Below are positions 2,115-19,245 of a stretch of DNA of 34,670 nucleotides, in pieces. How positions within the stretch are numbered: the stretch's first letter is position 1; each line of letters begins with the position of its first letter. The notes below the pieces were generated by a model. The model did not search any database and was not told where the DNA came from. It was given only the letters and a program-made list of their open reading frames with translations. Source of the DNA: a virus (taxonomy: Duplodnaviria; Heunggongvirae; Uroviricota; Caudoviricetes); the IMG/VR virus record IMGVR_UViG_2563366941_000005. One strand, written 5' to 3'. The translations under genes were made by a program, and so were the position numbers.

Positions 2115-3062
2115 TCACCCCTGCGGCGGTTCTGGTAGAGGCATCCAGAACAAGGCGTTCCCTAACCACGATAAAGTGCCGTCGCTCAACTCCACGTATT
2201 CCCCTTGCACCTGGCCTGCCATATACTCACCGTGCTTTGAATAAATTAAAATCCAATCATCTTGATCGGGCATTCGCTCACTACAGCTTATCCAACCATC
2301 CGGAGTTACCGGATAGTTGCCAGCCAGTCTACGCAAAACAGCCTTAACCGCCTCAATACGGTCATCATCGCAACTTTCCAGCGTATCTATGCGATCGAGC
2401 ATGATGATGGCGTTATCAATATCAGGATTGCCGGTCCACTCATTACCGCGATTGGATTCGGCAGCCTGGTTGCCGTGTACTGTTTGATTCTCGGCTTTAC
2501 CCAGTCTGTCGTCGCTGCATGAATGCCCTTCCAGCCAGGCCAATGCTTGTCGCATGAAATACGCAATATGTTTGCCGTGGTAATCGTCTTCATCGATGTG
2601 AAAAGCGATACTGCGGATGTATTCAATTGCGTTTTCAATGGCCTCCGGCGTTATCGGCGCTGACATATTTTGATTTTGGAGTGCCAAGACGCGGCTGGCA
2701 TCCTCAACATCTTTAACTGCATCTGCGCAGTAGTTATAGCGATTGCACTCCACTAACTTCTGCTTGAGATTTTCAATTGCTTGCGCGACATCAGCCTGTA
2801 TTACCGGCACAGGCGGAGCGGCGTACAAAGCAATCAAACTGCCAATTGTTCGCTCTTTCGCATCATCCAGACATGGGTAGGCCGGGGTAGATACAATTGC
2901 ATTATCTCTAAGGTCGTCAGCCATTACCCATGCCACCGGCTCTGCTTCCAGCGAGGCTAACGCTATTTCATAAGCCCGGCGCTCAATATTGTCTCTCACG
3001 TCCAGGCTGCCTATGCGCTCTTTGATTTCTTTAATCAGTTCTTTGTCGGTAAAAGTGCTCAT
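2115..3062 (-). CDS. Phage protein with C-terminal DUF551-like domain
   Basis: ORF ending WMPLPEPPQG (typical DUF551 terminus); start moved to ATG at 3062 with AAGGAG SD 6 nt upstream; N-terminus paralogous to the next gene. Confidence 0.75.
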   Translation of the reverse strand: MSTFTDKELIKEIKERIGSLDVRDNIERRAYEIALASLEAEPVAWVMADDLRDNAIVSTPAYPCLDDAKERTIGSLIALYAAPPVPVIQADVAQAIENLKQKLVECNRYNYCADAVKDVEDASRVLALQNQNMSAPITPEAIENAIEYIRSIAFHIDEDDYHGKHIAYFMRQALAWLEGHSCSDDRLGKAENQTVHGNQAAESNRGNEWTGNPDIDNAIIMLDRIDTLESCDDDRIEAVKAVLRRLAGNYPVTPDGWISCSERMPDQDDWILIYSKHGEYMAGQVQGEYVELSDGTLSWLGNALFWMPLPEPPQG

Positions 3063-3063
3063 A

Positions 3064-3513
3064 TCAATCTCCTTTGGTACCAATGTTTACAGCCTGGCAA
3101 GCCTCTTTGAGCACCCAGTCAACAGCGTCTTTCCATGCTCCGGTTTCGACTGGCGGATTTTCACGCTTAACCTGTTCATAGAAGCGCACTGCTTTAATCA
3201 ATCCTTCTGGTGTCAGTGGCACAGGTGGAGCGGTGAATAACGCCTGAATTTCATAGTTCGGCCTGTCGTTGCAATCCTCTTTTGTCGGTACATATTTCCA
3301 GTCACCAACCCACTGCTCCCCCTGAGAGTCCGTAACGCCTTTTTTCACATAGCGATATCGCCACGCTATCGGCTCTGCTTCCAGCGATGCCTGTGCGATA
3401 CGAAACACATTGGCAAGCAGGCTGTCTGAGGATTGGTTATCGTGCGCTGGGTCGCTCAGGAAGCCATTGATGAATGATTTAATCTTCGAGCTTTCTCTGG
3501 TAATAGTGGTCAT
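3064..3513 (-). CDS. Hypothetical phage protein, N-terminal paralog of the DUF551 protein
   Basis: 149-aa ORF sharing ASLEAEP[IV]AW and APPVP motifs with 2115..3062; AAGGAG SD; stop overlaps the next SD. Confidence 0.7.
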   Translation of the reverse strand: MTTITRESSKIKSFINGFLSDPAHDNQSSDSLLANVFRIAQASLEAEPIAWRYRYVKKGVTDSQGEQWVGDWKYVPTKEDCNDRPNYEIQALFTAPPVPLTPEGLIKAVRFYEQVKRENPPVETGAWKDAVDWVLKEACQAVNIGTKGD

Positions 3514-5608: not shown

Positions 5609-5735
5609 TTTGTTCTCCACGTATATGCGCTGCACCGCGCTGAATTTTGGTTAAAGAAAACCCTCGCCATCAGGCGATTATTGAGTCAATTATGTTTCCA
5701 TAAATGCCCCCGCAGGGGCATTTGCAGTAAGGAAA

Positions 5736-6625: not shown

Positions 6626-6988
6626 TTAATGACCTGCTGCGCGTAGTTTTCCGTCAGGTTCACCGGCAAGAGTCAGTAATTGTCCCTGGTCTTCCTGCAG
6701 AATAGTCAGGCGACCACCGCGATTGACATACATCGGCGTTTCGGTGGTGTCTTCTTCGGAAATTTTCCCGCGGTTAGTCGGGCGAACATATGAGAGTTTG
6801 TGTTTGATTTTCACACGGTTCTCATCAAATGGTTCGATTTCCAGGTTGAGTGAGACCTTACCTTTGGTTTTCGTGTTCATCACACCGGAAGCGACTTCAC
6901 TGAGAACTGCGCCGATTTTGGTTTCAAATACGCCGCCGTCCAGCTCCCCGATAAATGCCTGCACATCAGTACTGCGTTCGCTAGCCAT
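6626..6988 (-). CDS. YfdP-like small phage protein (about 120 aa)
   Basis: Start reassigned to the internal ATG at 6988 (MASERSTDVQ) with GAGGAG SD; the upstream part of the tracked ORF is compositionally non-protein-like. Confidence 0.5.
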   Translation of the reverse strand: MASERSTDVQAFIGELDGGVFETKIGAVLSEVASGVMNTKTKGKVSLNLEIEPFDENRVKIKHKLSYVRPTNRGKISEEDTTETPMYVNRGGRLTILQEDQGQLLTLAGEPDGKLRAAGH

Positions 6989-7133
6989 TTTGCTGCTCCT
7001 CATCATATCGACCCTGCAAGGTCGGTTAGTTTCTCCACAAAACAGAGAAGAACACCTGCGGTGGCAGCCGCCCGGATGGATTGGGTTATGAGCCCGTCGT
7101 CCGGTGATGCTCTTCTCTGTTTTGTAAAAAGAG

Positions 7134-7170
7134 CGGTACCAGCCGGAAGTAAGTGTACAAACTGGTACCG
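7134..7170 (-). terminator. Candidate leader hairpin / intrinsic terminator in the early-left leader
   Basis: 9-bp inverted repeat CGGTACCAG / CTGGTACCG with a 19-nt loop; on the minus strand it is followed by CTCTTTTTAC. Confidence 0.3.
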
Positions 7171-7658
7171 CCAAAGCAGTGGCTGTTGTGGTGCCGGTGC
7201 TGATCTCCGGCTTGCGGTTATTTCAGACTCTCACGGGCGTTTAATTGCCCCGCCGAACAGCTCTTTTCCGCAATAGCTGCAATGTCTTTCGCGCATCAGC
7301 CTGCGCATTCACCACAACGCTGAGAGCATTGCCGGTGTCCGAATCGAACGGACCTTTTCCCTGCCCAACCCTCCCATCTGAATGGGACTGTCTGGAATTG
7401 AACCAGCACTTATGCCTTGCTCGTCAATGCTCTCATCGTTGCGTCCTGGTCTCTTCCCAGGCGTCAAACCGAATCGCCACGCTGGTTAGGCGTCTTATCA
7501 GCATCATCATTGACTTGCACATTCCGGCTACCTGGTTTGTTTGCCCGAGCAAGGAGTGGATTGTCCCCTTTAACGTCCCCAGACCGCTAACGACGCATGT
7601 GCCATACGCCGTGTTACAACCAAATTTTGTTTAATCTTGCCTGTGGCATGTTTCTTTT

Positions 7659-7692
7659 AGATACATTATGTATCTCAAGGGTACATTGTCAA
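7659..7692 (-). promoter_or_regulatory. Candidate pL promoter with overlapping OL operator
   Basis: Minus strand -35 TTGACA (7692-7687), 16-bp spacer, -10 CATAAT (7670-7665); perfect 17-bp palindrome AGATACATTATGTATCT (7659-7675) and operator-like ATGTATC-N5-GGTACAT (7668-7686) overlap it. Confidence 0.55.
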
Positions 7693-7693
7693 G

Positions 7694-7719
7694 TATAAAA
7701 AAACCTGCCGAAGCAGGTT
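7694..7719 (-). terminator. Rho-independent terminator downstream of cI
   Basis: Minus-strand stem AACCTGC, loop TTCG, stem GCAGGTT, then a 7-U tract, immediately 3-prime of the cI stop at 7731. Confidence 0.75.
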
Positions 7720-7730
7720 ATAAATATTGA

Positions 7731-8405
7731 TTAGGCCTTTATTTTGTATCTTCTTGGTTTTCCTGAGAAAATTACTGTACCAATTATAGAGCAATTACCG
7801 TTAATCTTAATGTAAGGCTCAGGCCAGTTTGGGTTTAATGCTTTGAGATAACGCTGTGTTCCATCTTCTATCAATCGCTTGAAGGTGGTTTCGCCTGTAT
7901 CGTGCATCAATGCAATAACGTCGTCACCGTGGCAGGCAGGGACTTCGGGATCAACAAAAATCATGTCTCCCGGGCGGTACTCATCAATCATTGAATCACC
8001 AATCACCCGCAAGATATAAGTCATTTCGCCACAGGGTACAGGGCAGGGATAAGTTTCTGCTGTGCTCAAATCAACCTCAGAATAGCCAACTTCTTTCCAT
8101 GCTCCGGCCTGTACCCATGATATGACAGGGACTAACGTTATTTGTTTGTTAGTAATTGAAACATCAGGTTTTTTTGTGATGTTTGTTGTCTGGTGTTCTT
8201 GATCAAGCCATCCGACAGGCAGGTCGAAACATTTTTCGATGTGCCGTGCCATGCTGTCACCGATATTTTTAGTAGCACCATCTCCCATAAACCTGCTGGT
8301 CTGGGTTGGCTCGCGATCAATCATGGTGGCAAAGGAAGAATTCCCGCCAACACCATCTCTCAGTTTTCTGGCGTTAGACCGCCGGATGTCATGGACTGTT
8401 TTCAT
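7731..8405 (-). CDS. cI: CI-like prophage repressor (N-terminal HTH, C-terminal S24 LexA-like peptidase domain)
   Basis: 224-aa ORF; C-terminal VIGDSM...GD..FVD...K signature of S24 autopeptidase; divergent from the cro-like gene; no SD upstream, consistent with a leaderless transcript. Confidence 0.85.
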   Translation of the reverse strand: MKTVHDIRRSNARKLRDGVGGNSSFATMIDREPTQTSRFMGDGATKNIGDSMARHIEKCFDLPVGWLDQEHQTTNITKKPDVSITNKQITLVPVISWVQAGAWKEVGYSEVDLSTAETYPCPVPCGEMTYILRVIGDSMIDEYRPGDMIFVDPEVPACHGDDVIALMHDTGETTFKRLIEDGTQRYLKALNPNWPEPYIKINGNCSIIGTVIFSGKPRRYKIKA

Positions 8406-8727: not shown

Positions 8728-9297
8728 ATGAGGCTAACCGTGGGTAAGCATCACTGGAAAGTAGAAAAACAGCCTGAGTGGTACGTGAAAGCTGTCAGAA
8801 AAACTATCGCGGCGTTGCCGGGGGGTTACGCTGAAGCTGCTGAGTGGCTGGATGTAACAGAGAACGCATTATTCAACCGCCTTCGTGCAGATGGCGATCA
8901 GATTTTCCCGCTGGGATGGGCAATGGTTTTACAGCGTGCGGCTGGCACTCACTACATTGCGGATGCTGTCGCACAGTCTGCTGGTGGGGTGTTCGTATCG
9001 CTTCCTGAAATTGAGGCAGTAGAGAACGCCGATATAAACCAGCGCCTGCTGGAAGTCATTGAACAGATCGGCAGTTATTCCAGACAGATTCGTTCAGCAA
9101 TCGAAGACGGTGTAGTGGAACCGCATGAGAAGACAGCAATTAACGACGAACTGTATCTTTCAATTTCGAAGCTCCAGGAGCATGCAGCACTGGTCTACAA
9201 AATCTTCTGCGCTCCAGAAAAGAGTAACGCCCGCGAGTGTGCAGCTCCGGGCGTCGTGGCGTCGATTGCTTCTGGTTGTGGAGAAACTAACGCATGA
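8728..9297 (+). CDS. CII-like / YdaT-like regulatory protein
   Basis: 189-aa ORF directly after cro; N-terminal segment AEWLDVTENALFNRLRADGDQIFPLGWAMVL resembles the CII HTH region; start may instead be GTG at 8740. Confidence 0.55.
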   Translation: MRLTVGKHHWKVEKQPEWYVKAVRKTIAALPGGYAEAAEWLDVTENALFNRLRADGDQIFPLGWAMVLQRAAGTHYIADAVAQSAGGVFVSLPEIEAVENADINQRLLEVIEQIGSYSRQIRSAIEDGVVEPHEKTAINDELYLSISKLQEHAALVYKIFCAPEKSNARECAAPGVVASIASGCGETNA

Positions 9298-9622
9298 ATA
9301 GTTTAACGGCAAATAACCGTTTGTCGCAACAGCTGGTGGTCAGCGTCGCTGAACACCTGTTGTTACGGCATGAATGCAGATTACCAAATCACCTGGCTGT
9401 AAGTAACCACAGAGAACTTTACCTGACTGTGGGGGGCGAGTTGTGCAGGAACTTAACCGCTGGTTTCGTGACGGAAGAGGGCTTTATGTCCATGTTATTC
9501 GTTGGGAGCCAGAAACACAGCGCGTTATCTATCTTCGCAAAGACTACCCGCATGAGTGCTTTAGTCCTTTGTGGAAATTCAGGCGTGATTTTGTTGAGTG
9601 TGAAGGACCACCAGCATATTGA
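9294..9622 (+). pseudogene. Possible frameshifted small gene (frame 0 N-terminus joined to a protein-like frame +2 segment at a G6 tract)
   Basis: ATGA overlap with the preceding stop; G GGG GGC heptamer at 9431-9437; downstream frame encodes VVQELNRWFRDGRGLYVHVIRWEPETQRVIYLRKDYPHECFSPLWKFRRDFVECEGPPAY up to a stop at 9620-9622. Confidence 0.3.
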
Positions 9623-9893
9623 TTCTGCAATTCCGGGACGTTACACTGTTCAGGCACCTTATAAAGCGGGTGCCGGGATTGGCGTCCTGAAATTCGCACA
9701 TGCGCATAACCGCGCTTCAGCGGTTTTTTTGCGCACGTTTCCTCACATCCAAATTATGGTGGGGCGTGCAGGGGCATCGAAAGATGCGCCGGGGTCATGT
9801 GCGACCGGTTACGCCAACCCTGTACGTCTCACCACCTCTGTGATTGGCGTCCCATGTGGTGAGTTTTCAAAATTCGCACATGAGGATGTCACT

Positions 9894-10439
9894 ATGGCAA
9901 CCACCCCTACCCAAACTCACCCTAAAATTGATGTTATCCATGGGAAGGCTGTTACCTCTTCTTTGGCCGTTGCCGAATATTTCTGCAAGCAGCACAAAAA
10001 CGTTATTCAAAAAATCCAGACGCTTGAGTGCTCTGTTGAATTCACTGAGCTGAATTTTCAGCCCAGTGATTACACCGATTGCACAGGCCGCAAACTCCCT
10101 TGTTACCAAATCACCCGCGACGGTTTTGCGTTTCTTGCCATGGGCTTCACGGGGAAACGTGCTGCCCGGTTCAAAGAGGCATACATCAATGCCTTTAACC
10201 AGATGGAGAAACAGCTTTCAAATCCCTCTGTACTGAGCGACGTTGCACATAACGCCAGCGTTCTCTATTCCTACATTTCATCAATTCATCAGGTCTGGCT
10301 GCAGCAGCTTTATCCCATGTTGGCAAAAGCCGAATCCCCGCTGGCTGTAAGTCTGTATGACCGCATCAACGACGCGGCGCTACTGGCCAGTCTCATAAAT
10401 TTGTCGCTGAACCCTTCAGAGGTAAGGGGGCGCAAATGA
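9894..10439 (+). CDS. Rha-family phage regulatory protein
   Basis: Rha-like core VTSSLAVAEYFCKQHKNVIQKIQTL ... ITRDGFAFLAMGFTGKRAARFKEAYINAFNQME; internal ATG at 9894 has GAGGA SD; the upstream 600 bp of the tracked 381-aa ORF is not Rha-like. Confidence 0.75.
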   Translation: MATTPTQTHPKIDVIHGKAVTSSLAVAEYFCKQHKNVIQKIQTLECSVEFTELNFQPSDYTDCTGRKLPCYQITRDGFAFLAMGFTGKRAARFKEAYINAFNQMEKQLSNPSVLSDVAHNASVLYSYISSIHQVWLQQLYPMLAKAESPLAVSLYDRINDAALLASLINLSLNPSEVRGRK

Positions 10440-18521: not shown

Positions 18522-18597
18522 GGCCCTTTAGCTCAGTGGTGAGAGCGAGCGACTCATAATCGCCAGGTCGCTGGTTCAAATCCAGCAAGGGCCACCA
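18522..18597 (+). tRNA. tRNA with CAU anticodon (Ile2-lysidine type, ileX/ileZ-like; could be scored as Met)
   Basis: 76-nt cloverleaf: acceptor GGCCCTT/AAGGGCC, D arm GCTC/GAGC, anticodon loop CTCATAA, T loop TTCAAAT, encoded CCA. Confidence 0.85.
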
Positions 18598-18604
18598 TCA
18601 CATA

Positions 18605-18681
18605 CCGCCATTAGCTCATCAGGAAAGAGCGCCAGCCTTCGAAGCTGGTTGCGCGGAGTTCGGGTCCCCGAAGGCGGTTCA
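18605..18681 (+). tRNA. tRNA-Arg-like (anticodon UCG), noncanonical
   Basis: D arm GCTC/GAGC, anticodon stem CCAGC/GCTGG with loop CTTCGAA, T loop TTCGGGT; one acceptor and one T-stem mismatch; 3-prime end TCA instead of CCA. Confidence 0.55.
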
Positions 18682-18694
18682 TTATCTGTATCCT

Positions 18695-18771
18695 GCGTTG
18701 TTAGCTCAGCCGGACAGAGCAATTGCCTTCTAAGCAATCGGTCACTGGTTCGAATACAGTAGAACGCGCCA
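18695..18771 (+). tRNA. tRNA-Arg (anticodon UCU)
   Basis: Acceptor GCGTTGT, D arm GCTC/GAGC, anticodon stem ATTGC/GCAAT with loop CTTCTAA, T loop TTCGAAT, encoded CCA; one acceptor mismatch and a G/A at the T-stem closing pair. Confidence 0.65.
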
Positions 18772-18786
18772 CACTTATTTTCCCTG

Positions 18787-18810
18787 GCTCGCTTTTGCGG
18801 GCTTTTTTTT
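18787..18810 (+). terminator. Rho-independent terminator after the tRNA cluster
   Basis: Stem GCTCGC, loop TTTT, stem GCGGGC (one G-U pair), then T8. Confidence 0.7.
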
Positions 18811-19245
18811 AAATGTCTCACAATTCAGGCGGTTGACTGTTGTCTGGTTTGCGGGGAGTTTGTTAAAAGAAACTGGCATGGTGAATCCCCCTGTGCGGAG
18901 GGGCAATCAGCGAGTAGGTATATGGGATAATCGCGGATTCAGGTGCTGGTACTGAATTCACCGGGAGGCACCCGGCACCATGCAATGGCACATAGTGCCA
19001 CTCTCCAGCCCCTCTCCGGAGGGGCTTTCTTGTGGGCAAAAAAAAGCCCGAGTGGGTTCGGGCAACAGCATGAGATATACATTTTTATAATCGAATGGAT
19101 TTTAACCAGAATTCATAAGGCTGCGCAACTGCGCGGTCTTTTTCGAATTGCGGGCTGTCGTCTCTCTTCTGCCATTGTCCTGTAACTTCCGGACTTCAGC
19201 CCGCTCCTTATTTTACTCACAATATTATCCCGGCCGGGAGGATTC

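What the first reader, a model, noticed from the sequence alone, without database searches (positions are those of the whole stretch)
6989..7658. 670-nt non-coding early-left leader with a hairpin and no N-like gene
Between the candidate pL/OL (7659-7692) and the first early-left gene (start 6988) no convincing ORF exists on either strand. Minus-strand reading gives only peptides of 28 aa or less, and the tracked plus-strand ORFs are compositionally implausible. The leader contains a 9-bp inverted repeat with a U-rich tail on the transcribed strand (7134-7170). A lambdoid phage lacking an N analogue may use RNA-based, HK022 put-like antitermination, or the region may encode a small RNA.
Basis: inference. 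Interest (0 to 1): 0.55.

Follow-up and report, generated by a model that had tools for sequence, protein, structure and literature searches.

The report
Modular structured-RNA leader of a prophage
The 670-base gap between this prophage's early-left promoter and its first gene is non-coding but full of conserved folded RNA, including a tRNA-shaped RNA family found in many phages and in no RNA catalogue, followed by a conserved transcription stop signal; it is not a put-type antiterminator.

Summary
pL (TTGACA-16-CATAAT, 7692-7665, minus strand) starts transcription near 7658. yfdP starts at 6988. No ORF in between shows a coding signature, and the window has no N-like or Nun-like gene. The reported hairpin is part of a conserved, covarying intrinsic terminator (7172-7126).

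The put idea fails. A covariance model built from seven put RNAs finds nothing in the interval.

The leader is an array of conserved RNA modules:
- **B (7625-7441):** shared with the phage P1 ban operon and with phiV10.
- **L (7441-7315):** a long hairpin.
- **M (7318-7185):** a four-way junction with strong covariation in its closing stem and compensatory changes in a loop-loop contact.
- **Terminator:** DicF-like.
- **D (7125-7037):** an 89-nt long hairpin just upstream of the yfdP ribosome site.

M's exact 21-nt core occurs in at least 120 viral contigs and 69 bacterial species. It is co-oriented with nearby tRNA genes and in some phages lies about 34 nt upstream of N-like genes. Rfam 15 has no family for M, B, L or D.

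Best reading: a non-coding RNA cassette plus attenuator, processed and partly read through like the Qin dicBF operon. M's biochemical role is unknown.

The parts
7697..7719 (-). Intrinsic terminator of the cI-like repressor gene (AACCUGCUUCGGCAGGUUUUUUU)
   Evidence: Sequence. Terminator scan. Annotated as a terminator in phage Ayreon.
7660..7692 (-). pL promoter (TTGACA 7692-7687, CATAAT 7670-7665) with an overlapping operator palindrome at 7660-7674. The transcription start is inferred at about 7658.
   Evidence: Promoter scan gives 11 of 12 matches. The sequence shows the palindrome. Ayreon annotates a promoter at the same place.
7441..7625 (-). Module B, a conserved element of about 185 nt. 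It holds hairpin H1 (7612-7590), an invariant core CCAGGUAGCCGGAAUGUGCAAG (7535-7514), and hairpin CCUGG-GAAGAGA-CCAGG (7461-7445).
   Evidence: 79-88% identical to the unannotated spacer between trnI and ban in phage P1/P7/D6/SJ46 and to phiV10/TL-2011b. The exact core is in at least 120 IMG/VR contigs, but in only three sequence types. RNAalifold gives 6 pairs with changes on both sides, three of them in the last hairpin. No Rfam family matches.
7315..7441 (-). Module L, a long hairpin. Arms 7441-7426 and 7330-7315 form 16 bp with 1 mismatch. It encloses two T-arm-like hairpins (7406-7392 CUGG-UUCAAUU-CCAG; 7353-7337 GUCCG-UUCGAUU-CGGAC). ARAGORN calls no tRNA here.
   Evidence: Sequence and fold. 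81-88% identical in SPC32H/SPN1S, 118970_sal3 and phiNP. In phiV10 and SPC32H the same stem is followed directly by a real tRNA-Arg. mEp460 lacks the interior at 7425-7329. ARAGORN negative.
7185..7318 (-). Module M, a tRNA-shaped four-way junction. Closing stem P1 is GUUGUGGU/ACCACAAC (7318-7311 with 7192-7185). The 5' core GAAUGCGCAGGCUGAUGCGCG (7310-7290) forms a D-arm-like hairpin. The variable arm spans 7289-7212. The 3' core GCCGGAGAUCAGCACCGG (7211-7194) forms a T-arm-like hairpin. Loop GCUGAU pairs with loop AUCAGC.
   Evidence: P1: 9 of 10 pairs change on both sides across 59 distinct copies, with 0 of 500 shuffles reaching the observed values. The T-like stem covaries. The D-like stem shows one compensatory case in P1 (GCAC/GUGC). 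The loop-loop contact is compensated in 2 of 3 variants. The middle arm is hypervariable, 24-186 nt. The M model finds only this copy in the window. Rfam has nothing. This variant is in 846 of 5426 complete E. coli genomes and is never annotated.
7126..7172 (-). [quoted passage not shown] Stem GGCGGUACCAG/CUGGUACCGCU, a 19-nt loop, then CUUUUU. Its 5' arm and tail resemble those of DicF.
   Evidence: Fold. Stem covariation in sal3, Kp4866-6 and LLS, with the U-tract conserved (8 of 13 pairs change on both sides). Alignment with DicF. The simple scanner missed it because the loop is longer than 8 nt.
7037..7125 (-). Module D, a long hairpin with a stem of about 25 bp. Its apical part is nearly invariant (GCGACGGGCUCAUAACCCAAUCCAyCCGGGCG). 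It may be a processing site.
   Evidence: Folding z-score -5.95 for 6975-7200. Of its 25 long-stem pairs, 4 change on both sides and 5 on one side; of its 10 apical pairs, 1 changes on both sides. In the 54-pair count of which D's 35 pairs are part (with the terminator stem and the small hairpin), 90.2% of cells pair, against 44-53% when partners are slid. G.U versus A.C cells are 34 to 4, which fixes the strand. Matches to some part of 6989-7730 occur in 2944 of 5426 E. coli genomes; in the records sampled, most cover only the first ~185 nt (terminator plus D), including e14 under the 'ymfH' CDS.
7009..7024 (-). Small hairpin CGACC-UUGCAG-GGUCG just 5' of the ribosome-binding site
   Evidence: Fold. 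In sal3, phiNP, Kp4866-6 and LLS it is replaced by GGCGG-UGGCA-(G/A)CCGCC at the same place.
6986..7000 (-). Shine-Dalgarno AGGAG (7000-6996) and the ATG (6988-6986) of yfdP, the first early-left gene
   Evidence: PGAP calls YfdP WP_000135680.1. The gene has a coding signature.

Best explanation
The interval is the untranslated leader of the early-left operon. It is a cassette of structured, non-coding RNA modules that ends in its own intrinsic terminator.

Proposed sequence of events after repressor loss:
1. pL fires at about 7658, and RNA polymerase transcribes modules B, L and the tRNA-shaped module M.
2. Most transcripts stop at the conserved terminator (7172-7126). This gives a leader RNA of about 530 nt. 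Host RNases (III, E or P) probably cut it into stable pieces: an M RNA protected by its closing stem, and a 3'-terminal DicF-like hairpin piece.
3. The fraction that reads through forms the long ~25-bp-stem hairpin D and a small hairpin just 5' of the yfdP ribosome site. Processing there would separate the leader from the yfdP-yfdQ-yfdR...xis-int message.

The leader therefore acts both as an attenuator or insulator of the early-left genes and as a source of phage RNAs.

Shown here: the interval is non-coding; the promoter and terminator are present; modules M and D have conserved structure, and B is conserved in sequence with partial structural support; the modules are mobile and widely distributed.

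Inferred: the termination efficiency, the processing steps, and what M and B do.
For: - **Promoter, start codon, no genes:**
- **Terminator:** it covaries and its U-tract is conserved in e14, sal3, phiNP, Kp4866-6, LLS and Eeyore. No minus-strand promoter-like site lies between it and yfdP or further down the operon.
- **Module M is a real RNA structure:**
- **Orientation of M:** it is co-oriented with tRNA genes (36 of 38 within 600 nt). It is often followed within 10-70 nt by an intrinsic terminator (at least 29 of 78 contexts), as expected for an RNA gene or cassette.
- **Same layout elsewhere:** phiV10 has B, then L, then a tRNA, then a DicF-like terminator. A Serratia prophage has M, then a terminator, then yfdP.
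- **Modules are separable:** cdtI/Ayreon lack 7425-7194 and mEp460 lacks 7425-7329.
- **Experimental precedent:** in the DicA-repressed Qin dicBF operon, which its authors liken to lambda's PL operon, DicF carries its own terminator inside the operon. Transcripts either end there (1146 nt) or read through (1608 nt), and RNase III plus RNase E release DicF (PMC10448788). The window's terminator shares UUUGGCGGUAyCAGUUU and CCGCyCUUUUUA with DicF.
Against: - No expression data were available. Termination, read-through and processing are all inferred.
- The terminator loop is unusually large (19 nt), so its strength is uncertain.
- If the terminator is efficient, some way of reading through it is needed for xis and int expression. 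That is what the antitermination rival supplies.
- M's invariant 21-nt and 18-nt cores, conserved across proteobacterial classes, argue for a specific conserved binding partner. A plain processing or stability role does not obviously require that.
- The structural support for B is thin, because only three sequence types are known.
Confidence: 0.55

Rival explanations
1. RNA-mediated processive antitermination of a new kind, functionally like put but not a put family member. Module B (and/or M) would fold on the nascent transcript, bind RNA polymerase, and carry it through the leader terminator and later terminators. This would replace the missing N protein.
For: - The window has no N or Nun.
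- A conserved terminator sits between pL and all early-left genes, with no other promoter-like site.
- B starts about 34 nt after the start site and is kept in all relatives of this group, even those that lack M.
- B also lies upstream of ban in the long P1 ban operon.
- M's core is invariant across very distant hosts, as expected for a contact with a universally conserved machine such as RNA polymerase.
- A published genome paper raises put-like antitermination for the related N-less phage LLS, untested (PMC12315714).
Against: - No sequence or structure similarity to put.
- M also occurs immediately upstream of N-like genes and inside tRNA arrays of virulent phages.
- In P1, B lies more than 2 kb downstream of Pban, after the operon's first terminator-like hairpin and three tRNA genes. 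That is not where a promoter-proximal antiterminator is expected.
- The N-less Qin dicBF operon is expressed past the DicF terminator, and the study of it mentions neither a terminator nor antitermination.
Confidence: 0.17
2. M and hairpin D are cis-acting 5'-UTR elements that set the translation or stability of the first downstream gene. They would be the counterpart of the RNase III-sensitive hairpin between nutL and the N start codon in lambda. The RNAs would have no function of their own.
For: - M ends about 34 nt before the start codon of N-like genes in at least four lineages and in Pantoea prophages.
- An M-like element with an 18-bp closing stem fills the dicF-dicB spacer and ends about 20 nt before the dicB ribosome site.
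- Hairpin D and the small hairpin lie directly against the yfdP ribosome site, or the xisE site in e14.
- The lambda N-leader precedent comes from my own knowledge (Kameyama 1991; Wilson 2002) and was not checked here.
Against: - In the window M is separated from yfdP by a terminator.
- In many contexts M is followed by a terminator or a tRNA rather than by a gene.
- A simple RNase III stem does not explain the invariant loops or the loop-loop contact.
Confidence: 0.15
3. The leader is decaying debris left by recombination with phage tRNA arrays (tRNA pseudogenes and spacers) and has no present function.
For: - L encloses two T-arm-like hairpins that no tRNA finder accepts.
- The interval is a mosaic with different pieces missing in close relatives.
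- B and M have homologues next to tRNA genes in P1-like plasmids and other phages.
Against: - Compensatory changes keep P1, the T-like stem, the loop-loop contact, the terminator and D paired.
- An exact 21-mer is kept across proteobacterial classes.
- The same M variant is 97-100% conserved in 846 E. coli genomes, in P1-like plasmids and in a Klebsiella siphophage.
Confidence: 0.08
4. A small protein gene is hidden in the interval, for example one of the ORFs annotated in mEp460 or Ayreon, or the in-frame upstream extension of yfdP from TTG 7174.
For: - mEp460, Ayreon and e14 ('ymfH') carry CDS annotations over parts of the homologous region.
- The frame from 7174 runs open into yfdP.
Against: - No third-position bias in any candidate ORF, against 11/15/156 for yfdP.
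- Frameshifts in 13 of 15 homologues of ORF71.
- Indels that are not multiples of three between relatives.
- PGAP annotates nothing.
- Substitutions follow RNA pairing instead.
Confidence: 0.03

Closest known systems
dicBF operon of the Qin prophage (DicF sRNA, Rfam RF00039)
   Same: Both are operons under a cI-type repressor (the Qin authors liken dicBp to lambda PL), and no N-like gene is evident in either. An RNA with its own intrinsic terminator lies between the promoter and downstream genes. In Qin, transcripts either end there or read through, and RNase III plus RNase E release DicF (PMC10448788). The terminator's 5' arm and tail are nearly identical in sequence. An M-like four-way element lies next to DicF.
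   Different: The Rfam DicF model does not match the window, and the sequence 5' of the terminator, where DicF carries pairing sequence, is unrelated. The order is reversed: M comes before the terminator here and after it in Qin. No protein genes precede the RNA here. Processing has not been shown.
RNase III-sensitive hairpin of the phage lambda N leader (my own knowledge: Kameyama et al. 1991; Wilson et al. 2002)
   Same: A large stem-closed structure lies in the pL leader just upstream of the first gene's ribosome site. In N-bearing relatives M occupies this position, about 34 nt before N.
   Different: By eye I found no sequence similarity between M's cores and the lambda leader; lambda itself was not fetched or scored. 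M has an invariant core and a loop-loop contact that a plain RNase III stem does not need. M also occurs outside N leaders.
HK022 put antiterminator RNAs (putL, putR; HK639 putL-like)
   Same: Both are structured RNAs encoded just downstream of pL in a lambdoid phage that lacks N.
   Different: There is no match to a put covariance model or by blastn. The architecture differs: put is two stem-loops of about 70 nt, whereas B is about 185 nt and M is a four-way junction. No functional test was made.
tRNA and tRNA-like structures (Rfam RF00005). The C4 antisense RNA of P1/P7 (RF01695) has a comparable layout of a closing stem around two hairpins.
   Same: M has a four-way junction with a closing stem, a 4-bp hairpin with an 8-nt loop, a variable arm, and a 5-bp hairpin stacked next to the closing stem. 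The two loops contact each other as tRNA D and T loops do. M is co-oriented with tRNA genes and, in the window, sits after L where phiV10 and SPC32H have a tRNA.
   Different: Neither ARAGORN nor the Rfam tRNA model calls M a tRNA. It has no anticodon arm, no T-loop consensus and no CCA end, and its closing stem varies in length. The loop contact is six Watson-Crick pairs. C4 is present elsewhere in the window (9752-9839) but does not match here.
RydB sRNA of E. coli (Rfam RF00118)
   Same: RydB contains GCCGGAGAUAAGCGCCGG, 17 of 18 nt identical to the commonest variant of M's T-like hairpin (GCCGGAGAUCAGCGCCGG) and 16 of 18 to the window's own copy. It lies next to the 3' strand of a closing stem and is followed by a terminator.
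   Different: The rydB model scores only 13.7-17.7 bits on M, against a gathering score of 50. The M model scores only 12.8 bits on rydB. RydB lacks M's 5' core. The link is a lead, not a membership.

Membership tests
HK022-type put antiterminator RNA | Sequence and structure match to known put RNAs (two stem-loops, about 70 nt) | tested here: not met
   Model R1, built from 7 put RNAs, gives no hit in 6989-7658. The best hit in the window is 9.1 bits, E 0.19, at 19079-19148. blastn with putL finds no phage that carries this leader.
HK022-type put antiterminator RNA | Promotes read-through of downstream terminators in cis, and is blocked by RNA polymerase beta-prime zinc-binding-domain mutations | not testable with these tools
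   This needs reporter fusions or in vitro transcription.
Lambda N / nut antitermination | An N-family protein gene at the start of the pL operon | tested here: not met
   tblastn with lambda N, four N-like proteins and Nun gives nothing below E 0.08. PGAP products list no N. The same N-like queries score well against Pfam PF25694 and phrog_271.
Lambda N / nut antitermination | A boxA plus boxB nut site in the leader | tested here: inconclusive
   The hairpin CCUGG-GAAGAGA-CCAGG (7461-7445) covaries. From memory, its loop recalls the lambda nutL boxB loop GAAGA. By eye I found no GCUCUUUA-type boxA next to it, only UGCUCUCAGC inside the L stem. No model-based test was made.
DicF sRNA (RF00039) | Match to the Rfam DicF covariance model | tested here: not met
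   No DicF hit at E up to 10 in 6800-7800.
DicF sRNA (RF00039) | An sRNA ending in its own intrinsic terminator inside a repressor-controlled early-left operon | tested here: met
   The position and terminator are shown, and the terminator arm and tail are shared with DicF. Whether a discrete RNA accumulates was not testable.
tRNA (RF00005) | Recognition by tRNA models (anticodon arm, T-loop consensus, 7-bp acceptor stem) | tested here: not met
   ARAGORN finds only the three tRNAs at 18.5 kb. There is no RF00005 hit in 6800-7800 at E up to 10.
tRNA-like structure (by shape only) | A four-way junction in which the two side-arm loops contact each other | tested here: met
   The closing stem and the T-like stem covary. 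MFE folds of 50 diverse copies mostly give the same layout. The loop-loop pair 27-50 is compensated in 2 of 3 variant contigs.
RydB (RF00118) | Match to the Rfam rydB model at its gathering score (50 bits) | tested here: not met
   13.7 bits in the window and 17.7 bits on a minimal M copy. Only the 18-nt hairpin aligns.
Rho-independent terminator | A G+C-rich stem directly followed by a U-tract on the transcribed strand, conserved in relatives | tested here: met
   An 11-bp stem plus CUUUUU. 8 of 13 stem pairs change on both sides across 7 phages and the U-tract is conserved.

The most novel reading that the evidence does not exclude
Module M is the first recognised member, in this window, of a widespread and so far uncatalogued class of tRNA-shaped phage RNAs. 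The class has a nearly invariant core of about 40 nt: a D-arm-like and a T-arm-like hairpin locked by a six-base-pair loop-loop contact. This core is held on a free-sequence closing stem and carries a hypervariable arm. It is conserved from Escherichia to Pseudomonas, Burkholderia, Janthinobacterium and Rhizobium prophages and in virulent phages. Such conservation implies binding to a universal host machine, such as RNA polymerase, RNase P or another tRNA-handling enzyme, or the ribosome. The variable arm could be a swappable payload, as in a natural tRNA scaffold.
Probability: 0.4. Interest if true: 0.85.

Novelty: new variant of a known kind. Interest (0 to 1): 0.66.

Why it matters
N-less lambdoid phages of the SfV, ST64B, cdtI, mEp460 and LLS type are common. 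They include Stx2a and Stx2c phages. How they express their early-left genes is an open question; a 2025 genome paper could only guess at a put-like mechanism (PMC12315714).

This analysis removes that guess for this leader. It replaces it with a concrete, testable map: promoter, three RNA modules, a conserved terminator, and a candidate processing hairpin.

It also brings out an RNA family (M) with strong comparative support that is absent from Rfam 15. M is unannotated in about one in six complete E. coli genomes. It lies in the N leader of other lambdoid phages, in P1's ban operon region, and in prophages across the Proteobacteria. It would give phage RNA biology a new object with an obviously conserved partner still to be found.

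Several database CDS calls (e14 ymfH, P1 plp/upl, small ORFs in mEp460 and Ayreon) overlap these RNAs and may be spurious.

Tried and rejected
- **Rfam 15.** Gathering threshold on the whole window, and E up to 10 on 6800-7800, on a minimal M copy, and at gathering on 12 related loci. Only tRNAs were found, plus known sRNAs elsewhere in the window.
- **put covariance model.** No hit.
- **tRNA finders.** ARAGORN negative on the T-arm-like hairpins in L and on M. In three other contigs (L075, L108, L119) ARAGORN does call a tRNA that overlaps M; in L075 and L108 a T-arm-like GGGTTCGATTCCC lies inside M's variable arm.
- **N and Nun search.** Nothing.
- **Coding tests on four ORFs.** Negative.
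- **Hammerhead reading** of CUGAUG...GAAA in M. Rejected by eye because the core does not fit, and there is no Rfam hit.
- **tmRNA-like reading of M.** Rejected. It has no CCA end, no G.U identity pair, and no tag ORF in its variable arm.
- **DNA-level readings** of M's flanking inverted repeat (integron attC, or a transposon with terminal repeats). Rejected. The repeat sequence is free while the inner cores are fixed, the loops co-vary, and M is co-oriented with transcription.
- **boxA-like GUGCUCUUUCC** in front of many M copies. The window has UGCUCUCAGC and it lies inside a stem, so I did not pursue it.
- **M model R2.** It was built from flank concatenates and splits real copies into two partial hits, because the variable arm is modelled as an insertion. 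It is usable for presence or absence but not for scoring. It does not detect the Qin or LLS M-like variants or RydB.
- **G.U versus A.C count for M's strand.** Uninformative, 36 versus 31. The strand rests on context instead.
- **Full-text search for the core sequences.** No paper holds them. King et al. 2011 on put-like RNAs is not held.
Full report
**What the window is.** The window is 100% identical over the 742 bases searched (6989-7730) to a prophage integrated next to mlrA in E. coli 19AR1724, NZ_CP195804. Its immunity region is of the e14 type: a LexA-family repressor ymfK at 7731-8405 on the minus strand, then ymfT and ymfL. Its early-left genes are yfdP, yfdQ, yfdR and onwards to xis and int. 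The closest phages are cdtI, mEp460, Ayreon, 2H10, 1720a-02 and several Stx2a and Stx2c phages. SfV, ST64B, phiNP and LLS are more distant relatives.

**Checking the observation.**
- Downstream of the repressor gene lies its own terminator (7719-7697).
- Next comes a near-consensus promoter on the minus strand, TTGACA 7692-7687, 16 nt, CATAAT 7670-7665. This is 11 of 12 matches.
- A palindrome, GATACATTATGTATC, overlaps the promoter at 7660-7674. The inferred start is about A7658.
- yfdP begins at ATG 6988 behind AGGAG.
- PGAP annotates nothing in it.
- None of its ORFs behaves like a gene. For yfdP, substitutions among 41 homologues fall 11/15/156 on codon positions 1/2/3. For the 129-codon plus-strand ORF they fall 4/1/0. 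The 71-codon ORF is frameshifted in 13 of 15 homologues. Two minus-strand ORFs give 19/30/12 and 11/7/12.
- Close relatives differ by large indels that are not multiples of three.
- tblastn with lambda N, four N-like proteins and HK022 Nun finds nothing in the window.
- The reported 9-bp repeat is the core of an 11-bp stem (7172-7162 with 7142-7132) followed by CUUUUU.

**The put hypothesis.**
- I took putL and putR of HK022 from its genome.
- I collected put homologues by blastn. This gave 21 records, including the annotated putL-like RNA of HK639. None belongs to the phage group that carries this leader.
- I aligned seven of them, built a covariance model and scanned the whole window without filters.
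- Nothing scores in 6989-7658. The best hit is 9.1 bits at 19079-19148 on the other strand.
- The leader is not a put family member.

**What the leader contains.** Comparison with other phages shows a mosaic of separable modules.

Module B (7625-7441):
- It is 79-88% identical to an unannotated spacer in the phage P1 ban operon, between trnI and ban and in the same orientation. The same holds for P7, D6, SJ46 and RCS47, and for the epsilon15-like phages phiV10 and TL-2011b.
- Its 22-nt core is in at least 120 IMG/VR contigs, but only three sequence types exist.
- RNAalifold gives several hairpins. The last one, CCUGG-GAAGAGA-CCAGG, has three pairs with changes on both sides.
- I regard B as conserved and probably structured, but weakly tested.

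Module L (7441-7315):
- It is a 16-bp stem enclosing two T-arm-like hairpins that ARAGORN does not accept as tRNA.
- In phiV10 and SPC32H the same stem is followed directly by a real tRNA-Arg.

Module M (7318-7185), the best-supported part:
- In most copies (about 87% of the 126 first found) a second core, GCCGGAGAUCAGC(A/G)CCGG, follows downstream of the 5' core.
- The stretch between the cores differs completely in sequence and length (24-186 nt).
- The bases just outside the two cores are complementary in nearly every copy, although their sequences differ entirely. Examples are GUUGUGGU/ACCACAAC in the window, CAUGGAGCCG/CGGCUCCAUG, GUGUGAUCU/AGAUCACAC, GAAGUAGGU/ACCUACUUC and UUGCUGG/CCAGCAA.
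- I concatenated the flanks of 59 distinct copies, cutting out the variable middle myself, and counted pairs.
  - 9 of 10 closing-stem pairs change on both sides.
  - 91.9% of cells pair, against 83.0% in shuffles and 28-48% when partners are slid.
  - The covariation score is 0.246 against 0.082.
  - 0 of 500 shuffles reach any of the measures.
- The 5-bp T-like stem also covaries (GCCAG/CUGGC, GCUGG/CCAGC, GCAGG/CCUGC, GCGGG/CCCGC, GCCUG/CAGGC).
- The search pattern fixed the 4-bp D-like stem, so the main set cannot test it. P1's own copy shows a compensatory GCAC/GUGC.
- The two hairpin loops are complementary (GCUGAU with AUCAGC). I scanned IMG/VR for copies with a changed central loop base.
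  - Both copies with U27 changed to C carry the matching A50 to G change in the other loop. They sit in different stem backgrounds.
  - One copy with G28 changed to U is uncompensated.
- Unconstrained folding of 50 diverse full-length copies mostly reproduces the same layout. The smallest copies (94-95 nt) are clean four-way junctions.
- M is therefore a genuine RNA structure shaped like a tRNA cloverleaf. It has a closing stem, a D-arm-like hairpin, a variable arm, and a T-arm-like hairpin, with the two side loops paired.
- Neither ARAGORN nor Rfam recognises it as a tRNA, and no Rfam 15 family matches it.
- The only weak echo is RydB, which shares the 18-nt T-like hairpin at 16-17 of 18 positions.

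**Where M occurs.**
- This exact M variant is in 846 of 5426 complete E. coli genomes, with 716 chromosomal and 237 plasmid places. It is never annotated.
- It is 97-98% identical in P1-like IncY plasmids, just after tRNA-Thr in the ban operon, and in the Klebsiella siphophage IME207, 117 nt upstream of tRNA-Ser and tRNA-Arg.
- The core, with a different middle arm, is in a Klebsiella Ackermannviridae phage and, by blast, in T1-like phages.
- The exact 21-mer is present in 69 GTDB species representatives. These include Pseudomonas, Stenotrophomonas, Aeromonas, Burkholderia, Pandoraea, Janthinobacterium, Massilia, Polaromonas, Rhizobium and others. In the roughly two-thirds of these where the 3' core was located, the architecture is the same, with a closing stem of 4-12 complementary pairs.
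- When a tRNA gene lies within 600 nt, it is on the same strand in 36 of 38 cases.
- Downstream of M there is often an intrinsic terminator within 10-70 nt, in at least 29 of 78 distinct contexts.
- Alternatively, about 34 nt downstream there is the start codon of an N-like antiterminator gene: Pfam PF25694 with E down to 1e-18, and phrog_271 with E down to 4e-36.
- In the N-bearing phages M therefore sits in the pL leader just before N. From my own knowledge, this is where lambda has its RNase III-sensitive leader hairpin.
- M is thus not a replacement for N. In this window it sits in the same leader position, but no N gene follows.

**The end of the leader.**
- The terminator and what follows it (7172-6989) are the most widespread part. 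2944 of 5426 E. coli genomes match some part of the interval, and in the records sampled most cover only this segment.
- In e14 of K-12 the segment lies upstream of xisE, under the 'ymfH' CDS.
- I aligned seven diverged copies: the window, e14, 118970_sal3, phiNP, Kp4866-6, LLS and Eeyore.
- The terminator stem changes sequence but stays paired (GUCGGCGUC/GACGCCGAC, GGCGGUUAUCC/GGAUAACCGCC, GCCCAUCG/CGGUGGGC). The U-tract stays conserved.
- Pair counts cover 54 pairs: the terminator, the long hairpin 7125-7037 and the small hairpin 7024-7009.
  - 15 pairs change on both sides.
  - 90.2% of cells pair, against 44-53% when partners are slid.
  - 0 of 500 shuffles reach the observed values.
  - One caveat applies: the structure was derived from the window's own fold.
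- G.U cells outnumber A.C cells 34 to 4, which fixes the transcribed strand as the minus strand.
- The segment 6975-7200 folds with a z-score of -5.95.
- No promoter-like site exists on the minus strand between the terminator and yfdP or further down the operon. The early-left genes therefore depend on read-through from pL.

**Link to DicF.**
- The terminator's 5' arm and tail (UUUGGCGGUACCAGUUU ... CCGCUCUUUUUA) match DicF (UUUGGCGGUAUCAGUUUU ... CCGCCCUUUUUA). The sequence 5' of them differs, and the Rfam DicF model does not match.
- In Qin-type phages an M-like element with an 18-bp closing stem follows DicF and ends about 20 nt before the dicB ribosome site.
- The Qin dicBF operon has been studied experimentally (PMC10448788). 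It is transcribed from a promoter under a cI-like repressor. Transcripts either end at DicF (1146 nt) or read through (1608 nt). RNase III and RNase E cut DicF out of the polycistronic RNA.
- This is the closest studied system, and I use it as the model for how the leader works.

**Mechanism.** The mechanism I commit to is a non-coding RNA cassette plus attenuator, as set out in the Best explanation section.
- Shown: the promoter, the absence of genes, the conserved structure of M and D (B's is only partly supported), a conserved terminator, and the absence of a second promoter.
- Inferred: how much transcription stops at the terminator, processing by RNase III, E or P, and what B and M do.

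**Rivals.**
- The main rival is a new kind of RNA-based antitermination by B and/or M. Several points favour it:
  - N is missing.
  - A terminator precedes every early-left gene.
  - B stays promoter-proximal in all relatives, even those without M.
  - M's core is extremely conserved.
- Several points count against it:
  - There is no put similarity.
  - M occurs upstream of N genes and within tRNA arrays.
  - B's position in P1 is far from the promoter.
- A purely cis-regulatory role for M and D, decayed tRNA-array debris, and a hidden small gene are less likely, for the reasons given under each rival.

**Novelty.** The leader's overall logic (an RNA with its own terminator inside a repressor-controlled early-left operon) is a variant of the known dicBF arrangement. 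The M family appears to be undescribed:
- It is absent from Rfam 15.
- No paper in the searchable library contains its core sequences.
- It is unannotated in every record examined.

I cannot exclude a description in a paper outside that library.

Noticed in passing
window 9654-9730 and 9752-9839 (+): Rfam finds isrK (62 bits) and a C4 antisense RNA (75 bits) side by side in the early-right region. They lie within the span PGAP annotates as a Rha-family regulator gene (9294-10439). This is a P1 immI-like RNA control module in a lambdoid prophage.
   Followed up: no
window 18522-19093: Three tRNA genes (Met/Ile2-type CAU, Arg UCG, Arg UCU) are followed by STnc100 (138 bits). AsxR lies on the opposite strand and scores exactly its gathering score. 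This is the arrangement known downstream of Q in Stx phages.
   Followed up: no
L007 (phage P1 AF234172) 1802-1900, about 69,811-69,909 in the record: P1 carries its own M copy, with D-stem GCAC/GUGC and T-like stem GUCGG/CCGAC, on the ban-operon strand. It lies under the annotated opposite-strand CDSs plp and upl. A second, degenerate copy is at 1569-1638. Those two CDS calls may be spurious.
   Followed up: partly
L007 (phage P1) 935-967; L012 (Klebsiella phage UPM 2146) 1313-1345: In the same non-coding arrays both phages carry a short frame that starts GCA AAC GAU and reads ANDDLMMVAA* (P1) or ANDNTFLAVA* (UPM 2146). Each is preceded by the conserved UUAGAAACUGACCA...AAAU. It looks like a tmRNA tag-coding region (E. 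coli tag ANDENYALAA, from memory). ARAGORN calls no tmRNA there.
   Followed up: no
L003 (E. coli K-12-type e14) 3002-3313: The annotated protein gene ymfH of e14 lies over the conserved terminator and long hairpin D, just upstream of xisE. Given the RNA covariation and the lack of coding signal in the window's homologous stretch, ymfH is probably not a protein gene.
   Followed up: partly
L244 (Qin-type phage PhiR42_1) 1360-1520: The dicF-dicB spacer folds into an M-like element. It has an 18-bp closing stem, GAAUUUUGUGAUGUGGUG/CACUGCAUCACAAAAUUC, and a T-like hairpin CCUGG-AGGCA-CCAGG. LLS and 118970_sal3 carry the same AGGCA-loop variant just before their leader terminators. The M model built here does not detect this subfamily.
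   Followed up: partly
L245 (E. coli K-12-type chromosome) 7709-7769 (-): The orphan sRNA RydB shares the 18-nt T-like hairpin of M (17 of 18 nt with the commonest M variant, 16 of 18 with the window's copy). It also has M's layout of a closing stem around two hairpins, followed by a terminator. It may be a chromosomal relic of an M-type element.
   Followed up: partly
window 7392-7406 and 7337-7353 (-): Two hairpins with tRNA T-arm-like stems and loops (CUGG-UUCAAUU-CCAG and GUCCG-UUCGAUU-CGGAC) lie inside the L stem. No tRNA finder accepts them. They could be decayed tRNA genes or deliberate T-arm mimics. The same interior is conserved at 81-88% identity in SPC32H, 118970_sal3 and phiNP.
   Followed up: partly
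window 6626-7174 (-): The reading frame of yfdP stays open for 62 codons upstream of its ATG, back to a TTG at 7174, across hairpin D and the terminator. Some phage records annotate extended YfdP proteins. The stretch shows RNA-type substitutions rather than coding-type ones.
   Followed up: partly
window 5664-5677 (-): A weak terminator-like hairpin (UCGCC-UGAU-GGCGA followed by GGGUUUUCUU) lies between yfdQ and yfdR. Phage Ayreon annotates a terminator at the same place. It would be a second stop signal inside the early-left operon.
   Followed up: no
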